A stretch of 64,000 nucleotides of DNA from Promethearchaeia archaeon (GTDB lineage: Archaea > Asgardarchaeota > Lokiarchaeia > Sigyniarchaeales > SOKP01): contig JAHQWL010000083.1 of assembly GCA_029856155.1 (NCBI GenBank), positions 38,514 through 102,513 of the forward strand. The letters are read 5' to 3'. Numbering within the stretch: the first letter of the stretch is position 1; each line of letters opens with the position of its first letter. The notes beneath the pieces are model-generated. The model was not told the DNA's origin. It saw only the letters and a list, made by a program, of their open reading frames with translations, and ran no database searches. The position numbers were made by a program, and so were the translations under genes. Positions 8,247 to 55,599 of the stretch are shown here, piece after piece.

Positions 8247-8350
8247 CGGGCTATAGGGGAATTGAACCCCCGACCTTTCTTTTTAAGGGAGATATACCCT
8301 TAAATGTCAGGTTAAAAGCCTGCTGCGCTACCTGCCTGCGCCAATAGCCC
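8247..8350 (-). tRNA. tRNA-Lys(UUU) with a ~30-nt intron at about position 44/45 (about 8276-8305)
   Basis: Acceptor GGGCTAT/ATAGCCC; anticodon arm GCAGG CTTTTAA CCTG; T arm GGGGG TTCAATT CCCCT; insert carries hairpin TTTAAGGG/CCCTTAAA. Confidence 0.92.
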
Positions 8351-9567: not shown

Positions 9568-9669
9568 GCCTCTGTGGCTTAGCGGGTATAGCAACATTAA
9601 ATGTCAGTTTGAAGAAAATGCTAAAGATTCGTAATCTGTAGGTCGGGGGTTCAATTCCCCCCAGAGGCT
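9568..9669 (+). tRNA. tRNA-Thr(CGU) with a 29-nt intron at 28/29 (9596-9624)
   Basis: Acceptor GCCTCTG/CAGAGGC; spliced anticodon arm ACAGA TTCGTAA TCTGT; BHB central helix AGCA/TGCT. Confidence 0.92.
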
Positions 9670-22379: not shown

Positions 22380-23852
22380 TTATCCCTTTACTACACCTAT
22401 TGGTACTAATCTAACTATTTTTTCAACGATTCCCAAATCATGACTAACTTGAACAACTTGATCTATGTCTTTATATGCACCAGGAGCCTCTTCAGCAATT
22501 ACTTTCATCGAAGCAGCTCGCACTAAAATACCTTGTTTATTTAGATTATCTTTAACTCGCTCTCCCCAGTATCTCTTAATAGCTTTAGATCTTGACATAA
22601 TTCTCCCAGAACCATGTGCAGTAGAACCAAATGATAGATCCATGGCTTTCTTTTTACCCACACAGAGATAGGATGCAGAACCCATAGTTCCTGGGATTAA
22701 TACGGGTTGTCCAATAGATTTATAATCTGAAGGTAGATCAGGATGTTGTGGGGGAAAAGCTCTTGTTGCTCCTTTTCTATGAATATTCAATTTCATTTTT
22801 TTACCATCAATTTCATGCTCTTCTATTTTCAAAATATTGTGGCAGACTCCATATATTAAATGGAAATCTAAATCGTCTATATCCTTTTTAAAGGTATTTT
22901 GAAAGGATTCTCTTAACCAGTGTGTAATCAATTGACGATTTGTGAACCCAAAATTAGCTGCACAAGCCATCTGTTTTAAATAATTCTGAGCTTCAGGTTT
23001 ATCTGCTGGAACACATGCTAATTCTCTATCAGGAACTTTTATATTATATTTTTTCATTGCTTGTTCGATACTACGCAAAGAATCTGTACATACTTGATGG
23101 CCAAGAGCTCTACTTCCTGTATGGACCATTACAGTGACTTGATTCTTTTCATGTATTCCCAAAGTTTTCGCGATATTCTTATTATAAATCTCATCAACTT
23201 TTTGTATTTCAAGAAAATGATTTCCACTCCCTAAAGAACCAAGCTGTTTAATTGCTCGTTGTTTTGCTTTTTGGGAAACTAAGCTAGCATCTGCATCCTT
23301 TAAACATCCATTCTCTTCCAAATGTTTATAGTCTTCTGCATCAGCATATCCATTCTCTAATGCCCAATTCACACCGTTTTTTAATACATTATCTAAATCT
23401 GAATAGCTTATGTTTAATTTACCTTTTGATCCTAAACCGGAAGGGATATTTTTGAAGATTGAATCTAATAGATTTGGAAGTAAACCCTTAATGTCTTTAA
23501 AAAATAAATTAGTTCTCAGTAATCTCACACCACAATTAATATCATAGCCAACACCACCGGGAGAAATCATCCCATCTTCCGCATCAGTTCCAGCAACGCC
23601 CCCTATACAAAATCCATAACCTTGATGGGCATCCGAGAGAGCAATGGCATGTTTCTGTATCCCAGGTAAGCATGCAACATTGCAAATTTGATCTAAGGTA
23701 CGATCTAACTTAATTTTTTCTAAAATATAATCATTCGCATAAATTTTAACCGGAACTCTCATCTGAAACTTCTCAATATTACCTTTAATCCTTACCATTA
23801 AAGTCTTTGGAGGAATCTCGAAGATGTTGTCATCAATTTTATTAACATTCAT
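22380..23852 (-). CDS. rtcB: RNA ligase RtcB (tRNA-splicing ligase)
   Basis: DAHQGYGF, GVGYDINCG, GSGNHF, HRKGATRA, HGSGR, EEAPGAYK. Confidence 0.98.
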   Translation of the reverse strand: MNVNKIDDNIFEIPPKTLMVRIKGNIEKFQMRVPVKIYANDYILEKIKLDRTLDQICNVACLPGIQKHAIALSDAHQGYGFCIGGVAGTDAEDGMISPGGVGYDINCGVRLLRTNLFFKDIKGLLPNLLDSIFKNIPSGLGSKGKLNISYSDLDNVLKNGVNWALENGYADAEDYKHLEENGCLKDADASLVSQKAKQRAIKQLGSLGSGNHFLEIQKVDEIYNKNIAKTLGIHEKNQVTVMVHTGSRALGHQVCTDSLRSIEQAMKKYNIKVPDRELACVPADKPEAQNYLKQMACAANFGFTNRQLITHWLRESFQNTFKKDIDDLDFHLIYGVCHNILKIEEHEIDGKKMKLNIHRKGATRAFPPQHPDLPSDYKSIGQPVLIPGTMGSASYLCVGKKKAMDLSFGSTAHGSGRIMSRSKAIKRYWGERVKDNLNKQGILVRAASMKVIAEEAPGAYKDIDQVVQVSHDLGIVEKIVRLVPIGVVKG

Positions 23853-36352: not shown

Positions 36353-36962
36353 TTAAAACTCTAAAAACCCCGGATCATCAAAAATATCTTCAATTTTTCT
36401 TTCTTTCTTTATCTTGGAATCTCTTTCCGCGAATAATGACTCCTCCTCAGTCCGAACCCCTCGATCTAATTCTTCAGTATCAAGTTTCAATAATGCATCT
36501 TTTTCAAGTCGTTTAAATTCTTCAGCTTTCGTTTTCCAGTCATTTATTTCATCCAAATTAACATCTTCTTCATCTAGTAATATCGCGGCTTTTACTTTGC
36601 AAAGATCTGACAAAATAGAGTAGGCTAATGCTAATTCTCCCCATTCTTGGTCTACTTTCAATCGCTGTATTCTTCTTTCTAATCTTTGTAGTTCTTGATC
36701 GGCATAATAGATATCAATAAAATCTCCAAAAGCATCAACGGGTTCAGAAATCGAATTAACTAATACTTCTTTTGTTAACTCACAATTTCCACATTTCACA
36801 GTTGCAAAAGCACCCTTCTTTTTAATATCAGTTACTTTGACGCTTTTTTCACCGCATTCGAGGAAAGATCGGAATCCGATCTACTCATTCTGGGCAGGTG
36901 AAAATTTTCGGTACTCTTTTAACCCTTTTTGGTGATACTTGTTTACGTTTTCTTCTTCCCAT
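36353..36962 (-). CDS. elf1: Transcription elongation factor Elf1 with C-terminal extension; two exons (36888-36962, 36353-36856), 192 aa spliced
   Basis: Exon 1 MGRRKRKQVSPKRVKRVPKIFTCPE; exon 2 CGEKSV...VKCGNC...SEPVDAFGDFID; together they give the Elf1 signature. Confidence 0.9.
36857..36887 (-). other. Putative 31-nt BHB intron in elf1
   Basis: Insert TGAGTAGATCGGATTCCGATCTTTCCTCGAA; removal restores CPECG; folds as a BHB. Confidence 0.85.
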
Positions 36963-53199: not shown

Positions 53200-54201
53200 T
53201 TGACGATTGAAAAGATCCTTCAAAGGATTGATGGTTTATTAAAGAATGCTAATTATGAAACATTAGCATTGGGAAATTTCACGGAAAAAAAAACTAAATT
53301 CTGTTTTGATCTTTTAGTTAAAAAAGATGATATGGTATTTAGCGTAAAAATTTTTCCAAATATTGACAATTTAAACCCAGAAATTATTCAAGATCTTAAA
53401 TCTTTATCCCTAATCCTCAAATCAAAACCTTTATTAATTGGAATCAGAAATCGGTATCAAAAATTAGAAGATAACACCATCTATGTAAGAGAAGGTTTAC
53501 CCTTTATTACGCTTAATACGCTTGAGAATATCCTTAATGAACAATACCCACACGTCTTGGCAAGAAGAGGCGGAGGAGTTGTATTCTTAGATGGGATATT
53601 AATGAAAACACTGAGAGAAAAGCATTCAATAACTCGAAAAGAACTATCAGGAATCTTAGGAGTGACTAAACGAACAATTTGTTCTTATGAGAATGAATCT
53701 ATGAGACCTTCCGAGAAAGTCGCTGAAAGGATATCGGAGATCTTGGAAAATAATGATCTATTTAAAAAAATCAATATTTTTGGATGGAATATTAAAGATA
53801 ATATCGATGAAAAAGAAATCTTGGAAAAAAACGAGTTAAGTGAATTTGAATCTCGTGTTCAAGGTATAGTAAAAGATATTGGACTTTCTTCATATTGGTA
53901 TAAAAAAGGGTCTGTTCCTTTCAAATTGTCTTTATACTCCCATCCTGAAAAAATTAATTTAGACGGTTTTTATCCTCTATTTTCTGGTATAACGGAAGAG
54001 CAAGATAAAATCAATGAAATGAGTTTAAAATGTTTAAGGATGTTTACAGAGTTATTCCATAAAACTTCACTTTTTATAATAGATAACGATATTAAAATTC
54101 CTGATCCGTTTAAAAAAGCAAAAATTCCTATTGTCAAAATTAAAAATTTAGAAAAAGTTGATGATGAAGAAGAATTCATTGAACTCGTCCAAGATTCATG
54201 A
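53200..54201 (+). CDS. Archaeal HTH transcriptional regulator (COG1395-like)
   Basis: CFDLL..K, NIDNL, YVREG, RRGGG; HTH LGVTKRTICSYE. Confidence 0.85.
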   Translation: MTIEKILQRIDGLLKNANYETLALGNFTEKKTKFCFDLLVKKDDMVFSVKIFPNIDNLNPEIIQDLKSLSLILKSKPLLIGIRNRYQKLEDNTIYVREGLPFITLNTLENILNEQYPHVLARRGGGVVFLDGILMKTLREKHSITRKELSGILGVTKRTICSYENESMRPSEKVAERISEILENNDLFKKINIFGWNIKDNIDEKEILEKNELSEFESRVQGIVKDIGLSSYWYKKGSVPFKLSLYSHPEKINLDGFYPLFSGITEEQDKINEMSLKCLRMFTELFHKTSLFIIDNDIKIPDPFKKAKIPIVKIKNLEKVDDEEEFIELVQDS

Positions 54202-54907
54202 TAATAAAAGAGAACTAATATGTGGAATAGATGAGGCTGGTAGAAATTAATTCAATTCGAATTAAGTGTTAATAGGCTCTGTCTTAGGTCCCATGGTTTT
54301 ATGTGGAATTTGTTTCGATGTTTCAAAAATTAATTATATATCTGAAATTGGAGTAAAGGACTCAAAGAAATTATCTTCTAAAAAGAGGAGTGAATTAACT
54401 GAACTCTTGAAAAAAAGCTGTTATTCTCATAAAATCGTTGTAGTTGGACCTCAGGAGATTGATGAGAGAGAAATTAAAAAAGTTACATTGAATCGACTTG
54501 AAGAATTAAAAATGGCAGAAATTATAAACGAATTAAAACCTGATATTATATACATAGATGCTGCTGATGTTAATGAAGAAAGATTTGGAAAGTCTATTAA
54601 AAATTTATTAGATTACAAACCTAAAGAAATTATCTCTAAACATAAAGCAGATGATCTATTTCCCATAGTATCAGCGGGATCTATTGTAGCAAAAAATAAA
54701 AGAGATACCTTAATTCTTGAAACCCATAAAGAATATGGGGATTTTGGTTCTGGTTATCCTTCTGATATCAAAACAATAAATTTTCTAAGAGAATATGTTA
54801 AGAAATATAAAAAACCACCAAAAATTGCTAGGAAATCTTGGGATACTACCAAAAAAATTATAGAAGAAGAGGTATCAACTAAGAAAATAACTGAATTCCT
54901 CAATTAA
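54161..54907 (+). CDS. rnhB: Ribonuclease HII; two exons (about 54161-54243, 54274-54907)
   Basis: Exon 1 ...ICGIDEAGR joined to exon 2 GSVLGPMV gives the DEAGRG motif; DSKKL, HKAD, GSGYPSD. Start may be 54161, 54164 or 54179. Confidence 0.9.
54244..54273 (+). other. Putative 30-nt BHB intron in rnhB
   Basis: Insert AAATTAATTCAATTCGAATTAAGTGTTAAT contains an in-frame TAA and hairpin TTAATTC/GAATTAA; BHB geometry. Confidence 0.85.
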
Positions 54908-55599
54908 GTGCTTTTTTTAACTACTAAGACAATATGGTTAGCAGCATATTTGTGTATATTTATACTTTCTATGATACTATATCCTGCTTTTTCAAGAATT
55001 TTTTTCTCTTGTTTATAAATTTGTTCAGATTTTTGAATGCTATCAATTGATTGAGATTTAATTGCTATAATGAGCACACCATTATTCTTTAGGTAATAAT
55101 TACAATTCGATAAGGCAATTTCAGCTTGATGTGGTTGTGCTACATCTTGATAAATTAAATCTATATCTGTAAAAATATACTTAGCATAATCTTCTGGGAA
55201 GCGAGCATCTCCTAATATTGGAATTATGTTTGTTCTATTTGATGTATTTTGAATTAATTGCCTTATACTTCTTTCTGCGAATTCTACCCCATAAATAATT
55301 CCAGAATCTATGATATCTGAAAGGTGAGAAATAGACGTACCTGAAGATGCTCCTAAATATAAGCATTTTATTTTTTCAGTTAAAAAATTGGTAATAGGAT
55401 TTCCTAAAATTAATGCGGCTATTTTACTTCTATATGGATCCCATTCTCTATACTCTGTACCCCTATGATTTATAAGCTTTTCTCCATAAATTTTTTTTCC
55501 TATAACTGCATTCTTCGTATAAAGTTTTAATTTTTCTAGGGGTCCAGAAATAAATACATTATAAAACTTTGGATGGGACCTAATTTCTATCTGAGACAT
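54904..55599 (-). CDS. flpA: Fibrillarin (C/D box methyltransferase)
   Basis: YREWDPYRSK, LYLGASSGT, DARFP, DVAQP. Confidence 0.96.
   Translation of the reverse strand: MSQIEIRSHPKFYNVFISGPLEKLKLYTKNAVIGKKIYGEKLINHRGTEYREWDPYRSKIAALILGNPITNFLTEKIKCLYLGASSGTSISHLSDIIDSGIIYGVEFAERSIRQLIQNTSNRTNIIPILGDARFPEDYAKYIFTDIDLIYQDVAQPHQAEIALSNCNYYLKNNGVLIIAIKSQSIDSIQKSEQIYKQEKKILEKAGYSIIESINIHKYAANHIVLVVKKST

What the first reader, a model, noticed from the sequence alone, without database searches (positions are those of the whole stretch)
54244..54273. 30-nt BHB intron within the DEAGRG catalytic motif of RNase HII
RNA: GAGGC-UGGU-AG|A-AAUUAAUUC AAUUC GAAUUAAGU-GUUA-AU|A-GGCUC. The central helix UGGU/GUUA is weak (one U-A plus three wobble pairs), and the bulges are AGA and AUA. 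The insert has an in-frame UAA. The listed ORF (54266) lacks the catalytic Asp-Glu. Splicing yields ICGIDEAGRGSVLGPMV, so active RNase HII would depend on splicing.
Basis: partly seen in the sequence, partly recalled or inferred. Interest (0 to 1): 0.88.

Follow-up and report, generated by a model that had tools for sequence, protein, structure and literature searches.

The report
tRNA-type intron splits Asgard RNase HII
The only RNase H gene of this Lokiarchaeia-type (Asgard) archaeon is cut in its catalytic motif by a 30-base insert shaped like a tRNA intron; 51 related species keep it, so the mRNA is very probably spliced, which papers I could search report for one archaeal coding sequence only (cbf5).

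Summary
Window 54244-54273 is a 30-nt insert with two in-frame TAA codons between the Arg and Gly codons of the RNase HII motif DEAGRG. Removing it gives a 238-aa protein that aligns without a gap to intron-less homologues.

It is not an artefact or a pseudogene.
- rnhB was found in 52 of the 54 species of the genus (Promethearchaeota MAGs). 51 carry the insert at the same site (30 nt; 29 nt in one) and one lacks exactly these bases.
- 15 genomes of sister families lack it.
- Exon 2 is under purifying selection (median dN/dS 0.135).
- No other RNase H gene was found in this 97%-complete genome.

The bulge-helix-bulge drawing is supported by covariation. The 4-bp central helix is 94% paired across 48 sequences, and a synonymous Gly third base co-varies with an intron base (U-G, U-A, C-G, G-C, never unpaired). 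Two EndA subunits and RtcB are encoded.

Weak points:
- The BHB is not the minimum-energy fold of this sequence.
- The register of the outer helix is ambiguous.

This is a new member of a known kind (the cbf5-type pre-mRNA intron). The scan has noted similar mRNA introns on other Asgard DNA (71 notes in at least 44 genomes).

The parts
54161..54243 (+). rnhB exon 1 (start ATG 54161; TTG 54158 is an alternative). It encodes MMKKNSLNSSKIHDNKRELICGIDEAG plus the first two bases of the Arg codon, and overlaps the upstream HTH gene (53200-54201) by 41 nt.
   Evidence: The N-terminus is collinear with the intron-less homologue P0107 (MMKRNSLSSSK...). CGIDEAGR is kept in all relatives despite synonymous variation.
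54244..54273 (+). 30-nt BHB-type intron (equivalently 54245-54274, because 54244 and 54274 are both A). It holds two in-frame TAA codons and is single-copy in the genome.
54274..54907 (+). rnhB exon 2 (last base of the Arg codon, then GSVLGPMV... to the stop TAA 54905-54907).
   Evidence: PF01351, 133 bits, profile 9-199; dN/dS 0.135.
54238..54241 (+). Central helix H, 5' strand (UGGU; third base of the Ala codon plus the Gly codon).
   Evidence: columns 15-18. The Ala codon is GCT in 47 of 49 intron-bearing sequences against 1 of 12 intron-less relatives.
54242..54244 (+). 5' bulge AGA; predicted cut between 54243 and 54244.
   Evidence: AGA in 47 of 48 aligned sequences, AGG in one.
54245..54267 (+). 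Inner hairpin h' (9-position stem 54245-53 / 54259-67, loop 54254-58).
   Evidence: 89% paired, 3 pairs with changes on both sides (for example U-A to C-G at columns 29-37).
54268..54271 (+). Central helix H, 3' strand (GUUA, inside the intron).
   Evidence: columns 45-48: 94.3% paired. Pair 18-45 is UG 29, UA 10, CG 8, GC 1, with none unpaired.
54272..54274 (+). 3' bulge AUA; predicted cut between 54273 and 54274.
   Evidence: The third bulge base is A in 47 of 48 sequences and G in one, so the rebuilt codon is always AGR (Arg).
54229..54238 (+). Exon-exon outer helix, 5' strand in the better-supported register (it pairs with 54275-54284).
   Evidence: (95.4% paired over 9 pairs) against (90.1% over 4 pairs plus an invariant G.G).
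54275..54284 (+). Exon-exon outer helix, 3' strand.
22383..23690 (-). RtcB RNA ligase gene, the presumed exon-joining enzyme.
   Evidence: PF01139, 569.7 bits, G000:C83:60896-62203, converted to window coordinates.

Best explanation
The insert is a bulge-helix-bulge (tRNA-type) intron inside the rnhB coding sequence.

Inferred steps:
- In the pre-mRNA, the last exon-1 bases UGGU pair with the intron's GUUA to form the 4-bp central helix.
- This helix is flanked by the 3-nt bulges AGA and AUA, by a 9-position intron hairpin, and by an exon-exon helix.
- The two-subunit splicing endonuclease (EndA alpha plus a beta-like subunit) cuts after the second base of each bulge, at 54243|54244 and 54273|54274.
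- RtcB joins the exons, rebuilding the Arg codon AG+A and the motif DEAGRG.
- The spliced mRNA encodes a complete 238-aa RNase HII. The unspliced mRNA can give only a 29-aa peptide, or an N-terminally truncated protein without the catalytic Asp-Glu.

Shown: the insert, its conservation, the covariation, the precise loss in one congener, selection on the exons, and the presence of the enzymes. Not shown: cleavage, ligation and the spliced RNA.
For: - Exactness: the spliced CDS aligns in one gapless block with intron-less homologues (P0107 237/237 aa, 68% identity). The whole PF01351 profile (1-199) is matched across the insert.
- Conservation: 51 of 52 genus genomes with rnhB carry the insert at the same site, always with stops (TAA, TAG or TGA). 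15 genomes of three sister families have none.
- Natural controls: G063 (L071/L106) reads GAAGCAGGACGTGGCCCT, that is DEAGRGP, with the insert exactly absent. G024 (L065) has a 29-nt insert, which is tolerated only if the insert is removed from the RNA.
- Structure: the central helix is 94.3% paired, with four standard pair types and no unpaired cell at 18-45. The inner stem has 3 compensatory pairs. No shuffle in 500 reaches the observed covariation score, and slid controls fall to 23-46% paired.
- Synonymous constraint: the Ala codon's third base (the first H pair) is U in 47 of 49 intron-bearing sequences against 1 of 12 intron-less relatives.
- Function kept: median dN/dS is 0.135 over 552 pairs with dS up to about 1.7.
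- It is the only RNase H gene found.
- Machinery: two EndA paralogues, 32% identical. In the pairwise alignment one carries a His where the other does not, which I take to be the catalytic His. RtcB is also present. Asgard EndA is reported as (alpha-beta)2 with the broad-specificity L1 loop (PMC5829648).
- A second mRNA insert in the same window (elf1, 31 nt, frameshifting) is present in some congeners and exactly absent in at least 8.
Against: - No RNA evidence of any kind was obtained.
- The BHB is not the predicted minimum-energy fold of this species' sequence. In only 14 of 48 relatives does the MFE hold at least 3 of the 4 central pairs.
- RNAalifold's consensus returns the outer helix and the hairpin tip, not the central helix.
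- The central helix here is one U-A plus three G.U pairs, and 9 of 48 sequences have a mismatch at pair 16-47.
- The better-supported outer helix register competes with the first central pair (U54238 with G54275 instead of A54271). That would leave a 3-bp helix and a 4-nt bulge, a non-canonical substrate.
- My crude genome-wide scan for BHB-bounded segments that mend ORFs showed no excess over decoy bulge geometries. It gives no independent support for many such introns.
Confidence: 0.85

Rival explanations
1. Translational bypassing ('hopping', as in phage T4 gene 60): the ribosome takes off at the Arg codon, skips 30 nt containing a hairpin and stops, and lands before GGC.
For: A stable hairpin and a stop lie just after the putative take-off site. 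A 29-nt variant would also be tolerated.
Against: Gene-60-type bypassing needs matching take-off and landing codons. Here the take-off would be AGA, while the three bases before GGC are AUA, AAA, GUA, AGG or ACA in the relatives. The covarying pairs join exon bases to the 3' end of the insert (columns 15-18 with 45-48). A BHB predicts this pairing and a take-off hairpin does not. The exact two-bulge geometry restores the frame. The frameshifting elf1 insert in the same genus has the same architecture. No bypassing has been described in archaea (my own knowledge).
Confidence: 0.04
2. Decaying or inactivated gene: the insert is a fixed disruptive insertion, and rnhB is a pseudogene or yields only a non-catalytic C-terminal fragment with another role.
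For: Public annotations call only the 204-213-aa fragment. Many relatives have an in-frame ATG inside the insert.
Against: dN/dS is 0.135 over long divergence. Exon 1 keeps CGIDEAGR in frame in all 51 species with synonymous changes, which has no explanation if it is untranslated. The internal start is missing in the ACCA and CCUA variants (ATA, ACA, GTA). The insert evolves by paired changes. No other RNase H was found in the genome.
Confidence: 0.05
3. The insert is removed at the RNA level by some other route (a different nuclease and ligase pair, or a relaxed non-BHB recognition such as a bulge-helix-loop with a 4-nt 3' bulge), not by canonical BHB recognition.
For: The outer helix register favours a 3-bp helix plus a 4-nt bulge. 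The BHB is energetically poor in this species.
Against: A54271 is invariant and U54238 is kept in 46 of 48 sequences, as needed for the fourth central pair. Only with that pair do cuts two bases beyond each helix end restore the frame. EndA of the (alpha-beta)2 L1 type accepts relaxed motifs anyway (PMC5829648), so this is a variant of the same mechanism.
Confidence: 0.05
4. Stop-codon readthrough or recoding that translates the insert as a 10-residue loop.
For: The insert is a multiple of three in 50 species.
Against: There are one or two stops per insert, of all three kinds (TAA, TAG, TGA) across species. The 29-nt variant breaks the frame. The insert would sit inside the metal-binding DEAGRG loop. 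Intron-less homologues have no such loop.
Confidence: 0.01

Closest known systems
cbf5 pre-mRNA intron of Crenarchaeota (Aeropyrum, Sulfolobales, Desulfurococcales; Watanabe 2002; Yoshinari 2006; Yokobori 2009, PMC2738675)
   Same: A BHB-type intron inside a protein-coding sequence. The host has a hetero-oligomeric EndA. It is present across a clade, with lineage-specific precise loss, and gene callers mis-annotate the gene.
   Different: Different gene (rnhB, not cbf5) and different phylum (Asgard/Promethearchaeota). The two are not homologous. Splicing of cbf5 was shown by RT-PCR and in vitro, whereas here it is inferred. This intron sits in the catalytic motif of the only RNase H gene.
Archaeal tRNA and rRNA BHB introns (hBHBh' motif; Marck and Grosjean 2003), including the abundant non-canonical tRNA introns of Asgard archaea (PMC11291895; bioRxiv 10.64898/2026.10.13.758758)
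   Same: 3-nt bulge, 4-bp helix, 3-nt bulge geometry, with cuts after the second bulge base. The size matches the roughly 30 extra nt in two tRNA genes of this same window.
   Different: The host RNA is an mRNA. The exon-side helices are built from codons, so structure and coding constrain the same bases.
BHB intron in the 5' UTR of Haloferax volcanii HVO_1309 mRNA (PMC7714728)
   Same: EndA processes an mRNA.
   Different: That intron lies in the untranslated leader and does not interrupt the reading frame.
HAC1/XBP1 unconventional mRNA splicing in eukaryotes (Ire1 plus tRNA ligase/RtcB)
   Same: A small intron bounded by stem-loops is cut by a protein endonuclease and joined by a tRNA-type ligase (RtcB in metazoa), which changes the reading frame or product.
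   Different: The nuclease is different (Ire1, not EndA/TSEN) and the eukaryotic event is stress-regulated. No regulation is shown here.

Membership tests
Archaeal BHB intron (EndA/RtcB-spliced) | Two 3-nt bulges on opposite strands separated by a 4-bp helix | tested here: met
   Drawn at 54238-54244 / 54268-54274. The central helix is 94.3% paired in 48 sequences with covariation. Caveats: it is not the MFE fold of this sequence, and a competing outer register exists.
Archaeal BHB intron (EndA/RtcB-spliced) | Flanking helices (h exon-exon, h' intron hairpin) | tested here: met
   h' is 89% paired with 3 compensatory pairs. The outer helix is 90-95% paired depending on register.
Archaeal BHB intron (EndA/RtcB-spliced) | Cuts at the canonical bulge positions give a functional mature RNA | tested here: met
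   In silico only. The spliced CDS is open, 238 aa, and gapless against intron-less homologues. A natural intron-less allele has the same junction (L071).
Archaeal BHB intron (EndA/RtcB-spliced) | Splicing endonuclease and RNA ligase encoded by the host | tested here: met
   Two EndA paralogues pass the curated cut-off of TIGR00324 and RtcB scores 569.7 bits.
Archaeal BHB intron (EndA/RtcB-spliced) | Spliced RNA (and excised, often circular, intron) exists in cells | not testable with these tools
Searches of metagenome contigs and the protein collection found no spliced copy from an intron-bearing species.
Archaeal BHB intron (EndA/RtcB-spliced) | Cleavage by purified EndA at the predicted phosphodiesters | not testable with these tools
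   This is a bench experiment.
RNase HII (PF01351) | Full-length domain with the catalytic acidic residues (Asp-Glu of the DEAGRG motif plus the downstream Asp residues) | tested here: met
   Profile 1-199 of 199 is matched across the insert, 138.7 bits. DE lies in exon 1. The DAAD and GSGYPSD motifs lie in exon 2 (seen in 28 and 34 of 35 relatives by exact string).
Programmed translational bypass (T4 gene 60 type) | Matching take-off and landing codons flanking the skipped segment | tested here: not met
   Take-off is AGA or AGG. The codon before the resume site is AUA, AAA, GUA, AGG or ACA.

The most novel reading that the evidence does not exclude
The rnhB intron is one visible piece of routine tRNA-type splicing of protein-coding mRNAs in Lokiarchaeia and other Asgard archaea. 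Under this reading, tens of housekeeping genes per genome depend on EndA/RtcB, introns are gained and precisely lost within a genus, and splicing can gate the activity of enzymes such as the sole RNase H. That would place interrupted protein genes and enzyme-mediated mRNA splicing in the closest archaeal relatives of eukaryotes.
Probability: 0.55. Interest if true: 0.88.

Novelty: new member of a known kind. Interest (0 to 1): 0.72.

Why it matters
- In the papers I could search, protein-coding BHB introns are documented inside a coding sequence for cbf5 of Crenarchaeota only (PMC7714728 says so explicitly). A second, unrelated gene in Asgard archaea, kept for a long time in about 50 species, widens that to the lineage closest to eukaryotes.
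- The only RNase H found in the genome, needed for ribonucleotide excision and RNA-primer removal, would depend on the tRNA-splicing machinery.
- Every public annotation I saw for this genus calls a 204-213-aa protein that lacks the catalytic Asp-Glu. Annotation pipelines therefore systematically mis-call such genes.
- The natural intron-less and 29-nt alleles and the covarying codon base give ready-made controls for experiments.

Tried and rejected
- Spliced-junction pattern in metagenome contigs: 75 hits. Only four were full-length relatives, at about 70% nt identity, and all are intron-less DNA from other lineages. None is a spliced copy of an intron-bearing species.
- Protein collection: hits of 224-237 aa are intron-less relatives at 72% identity or less. 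The 228-aa P0063 is an artefact ORF that reads the 29-nt allele in another frame. No transcript-derived full-length protein appeared among the best 120 hits.
- Single-sequence folding and RNAalifold do not return the BHB. The symmetric MFE fold was tested on the alignment and rejected (pair 16-50 unpaired in 38 of 48 sequences, pair 19-47 in 23).
- Genome-wide census: BHB geometry plus ORF repair gave no excess over decoy bulge sizes (6 in-frame 30-nt hits against a decoy mean of 4.7; the rnhB intron is one of the six). In a 29%-GC genome the background is too high, so the result is inconclusive. It is not evidence against other introns.
- Mobile-element idea: no other copy of the intron with 25 or more of 30 matching bases exists in the genome.
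- Intein and group I or II intron: excluded by size (30 nt) and by the stops.

Full report
**Observation.** In the window, rnhB reads ...ATA TGT GGA ATA GAT GAG GCT GGT AGA, then 30 nt (AAT TAA TTC AAT TCG AAT TAA GTG TTA ATA), then GGC TCT GTC TTA GGT CCC ATG GTT.
- The insert has two in-frame TAA codons.
- The ORF list gives only 54266-54907, starting at a GTG inside the insert. Its Pfam RNase_HII match starts at profile position 9, so it lacks the catalytic Asp-Glu.
- Removing 54244-54273 gives an open 720-nt CDS (54158/54161-54243 plus 54274-54907). Its product reads ...ELICGIDEAGRGSVLGPMV... and aligns in one gapless block with intron-less homologues, for example P0107 over 237 of 237 residues at 68% identity, N-terminus MMKRNSLSSSK included.
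- Because 54244 and 54274 are both A, the excised segment could equally be 54245-54274.

**Not an artefact, not a dead gene.**
- The window lies in a 4.1-Mb, 97%-complete assembly (G000) with a single RNase HII match. That match covers the whole profile across the insert. No type-1 RNase H was found.
- Record titles of near relatives name Promethearchaeota/Promethearchaeia MAGs, that is Lokiarchaeia-type Asgard archaea.
- The genus holds 54 species genomes. rnhB was located in 52.
- 51 of the 52 carry an insert at exactly this site, always with TAA, TAG or TGA in frame. It is 30 nt in 50 genomes and 29 nt in G024 (L065).
- G063 (L071, also L106) lacks it precisely: GAT GAA GCA GGA CGT GGC CCT GTT, that is DEAGRGPV.
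- 15 genomes from three other families of the order have uninterrupted genes.
- Among 35 complete intron-bearing exon-2 sequences the median pairwise dN/dS is 0.135 (interquartile range 0.115-0.156, 552 pairs, dS up to about 1.7).
- Exon 1 keeps CGIDEAGR in all of them, with synonymous variation at the Cys, Gly, Ile and Asp codons.
- The 29-nt allele would break the frame in any model in which the insert is translated. It is neutral if the insert is cut out at fixed structural positions. It rests on one MAG, so an assembly error cannot be excluded.

**Structure.** I aligned 48 distinct sequences (A1; column = window position minus 54223) and counted pairs for three drawings.
  - The central helix (columns 15-18 with 45-48) is 94.3% paired.
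  - Pair 18-45 joins the third base of the Gly codon to an intron base. It occurs as U-G (29), U-A (10), C-G (8) and G-C (1), and is never unpaired.
  - Pair 17-46 is G-U or G-C in all sequences.
  - The inner stem is 89% paired, and three of its pairs change on both sides.
  - No shuffle in 500 reaches the observed covariation score. Sliding the partners by 1-3 columns drops pairing to 23-46%.
- *The symmetric minimum-energy fold of the window's own sequence*. It fails in the relatives: pair 16-50 is unpaired in 38 of 48 sequences and pair 19-47 in 23.
- *An outer exon-exon helix shifted by one base* (columns 6-15 with 52-61; found by RNAalifold).
  - It is 95.4% paired over nine pairs.
  - It competes for U54238, which would then pair with G54275 instead of A54271.
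  - Only with the U54238-A54271 pair do cuts two bases beyond each end of the central helix restore the frame. A54271 is invariant and U54238 is kept in 46 of 48 sequences.
  - The Ala codon is GCT in 47 of 49 intron-bearing sequences but in 1 of 12 close intron-less relatives.

I therefore take the canonical 4-bp helix as the state that is cut and regard the outer register as unresolved.

Weaknesses of the structural case:
- By the nearest-neighbour energy model, the BHB lies on average 8 kcal/mol above each sequence's MFE, and 11 kcal/mol for the window.
- Only 14 of 48 MFE folds hold three or more central pairs.
- In this species the central helix is U-A plus three G.U pairs. Several relatives have UGGU/ACCA.

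**Machinery.**
- The genome encodes two EndA-family proteins of about 200 aa, 32% identical.
- Both pass the curated cut-off of TIGR00324.
- In the pairwise alignment one has a His (...PGLEHS...) where the other reads ...ADFEKDS.... I take this to be the catalytic His. That fits the (alpha-beta)2 enzyme with the L1 loop reported for Asgard archaea (PMC5829648). It also fits the link between hetero-oligomeric EndA and pre-mRNA splicing (Yoshinari 2006, cited in PMC12397907).
- RtcB lies in the window itself (22383-23690, minus strand).

**History.** A quick maximum-likelihood tree of exon-2 proteins was read with care: the careful search was unfinished, the root is at the midpoint, and the backbone is weak.
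- Intron-bearing and close intron-less sequences fall in one clade with SH-aLRT support 96.
- The intron-less G063 and P0094 group with the intron-bearing L005 and L061 at support 98.
- Well-supported branches force at least two changes of state, and parsimony needs four.
- This looks like gain followed by at least one precise loss, as described for cbf5 (PMC2738675).
- The intron is single-copy in the genome, so there is no sign of a spreading repeat.

**Context in the window.**
  - Among 30 congeneric loci, 19 carry a 31-32-nt insert with compensatory changes in its hairpin.
  - 8 read TGC CCA GAA TGC GGT without it; 3 loci did not match my search pattern.
  - Its length is not a multiple of three, so it must be removed from the RNA.
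- Rfam finds two tRNA genes of 104 and 102 nt against a 71-position model. ARAGORN finds no tRNA at all in the window. This fits the reports of many, partly hidden, tRNA introns in Asgard archaea (PMC11291895; bioRxiv 10.64898/2026.10.13.758758).

**Rivals.**
- Gene-60-type bypassing fails its defining test, because take-off and landing codons do not match. It also does not predict pairing between exon bases and the 3' end of the insert.
- A pseudogene or a stand-alone C-terminal fragment is contradicted by the selection on both exons, by the lack of a conserved internal start, and by the absence of any other RNase H.
- Readthrough is excluded by the kinds and number of stops and by the 29-nt allele.

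**What is missing.**
- A scan of metagenome contigs for the spliced junction found only intron-less relatives at about 70% identity.
- The protein collection held truncated 204-213-aa products for this genus and full-length proteins only from intron-less lineages.
- My structure-plus-ORF census of the genome showed no excess over decoy geometries, which I regard as uninformative in a 29%-GC genome.

**Known or new.**
- Full-text searches found BHB introns inside coding sequences only for crenarchaeal cbf5, plus a 5'-UTR case in Haloferax (PMC7714728).
- I found nothing on rnhB or on Asgard protein genes.
- The library misses most subscription-journal papers, so this is 'not found', not 'absent'.
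- Earlier notes of this scan report similar mRNA introns in at least 44 other Asgard genomes. One has an RNA-derived contig lacking the intron. I treat these as leads and did not test them.

**Verdict.** This is a genuine, long-conserved BHB-type intron in rnhB. Splicing is inferred with about 85% confidence. It is a new member of the cbf5-type kind.

Noticed in passing
window 36857-36887 (minus strand): A 31-nt BHB-like insert splits the first CxxC of the Elf1 zinc ribbon (FTCPE|...|CGEKSV). The unspliced frame stops at TGA and is shifted. Of 30 congeneric loci, 19 carry a 31-32-nt insert with compensatory hairpin changes, 8 lack it exactly and 3 did not match my pattern.
   Followed up: partly
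window 8247-8350 (-) and 9568-9669 (+): Rfam finds two tRNA genes of 104 and 102 nt against a 71-position model, so each holds about 30 extra nt. ARAGORN reports no tRNA in the whole window.
   Followed up: no
Neither ARAGORN nor Rfam at gathering threshold reports it.
   Followed up: no
window 54161-54201 and 54904-54907: The rnhB start (ATG 54161) overlaps the end of the upstream 333-aa HTH_3 gene by 41 nt. The convergent fibrillarin gene (54904-55599, minus strand) overlaps the rnhB stop by 4 nt.
   Followed up: no
public protein records for this genus (P0001-P0062; P0063): Public gene calls for this rnhB are N-terminally truncated (204-213 aa, 'ribonuclease HII') and lack the catalytic Asp-Glu. 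For the 29-nt allele, a 228-aa artefact ORF reads exon 1 and the insert in a wrong frame.
   Followed up: yes
G003:C18:144667-145191 and G018:C9:18861-19388 (congeners, not in the window): Two congeners hold a second, weaker RNase_HII match (profile 1-165) inside long open frames of 587 and 564 aa, possibly a fused RNase HII-like domain. G000 has none.
   Followed up: no
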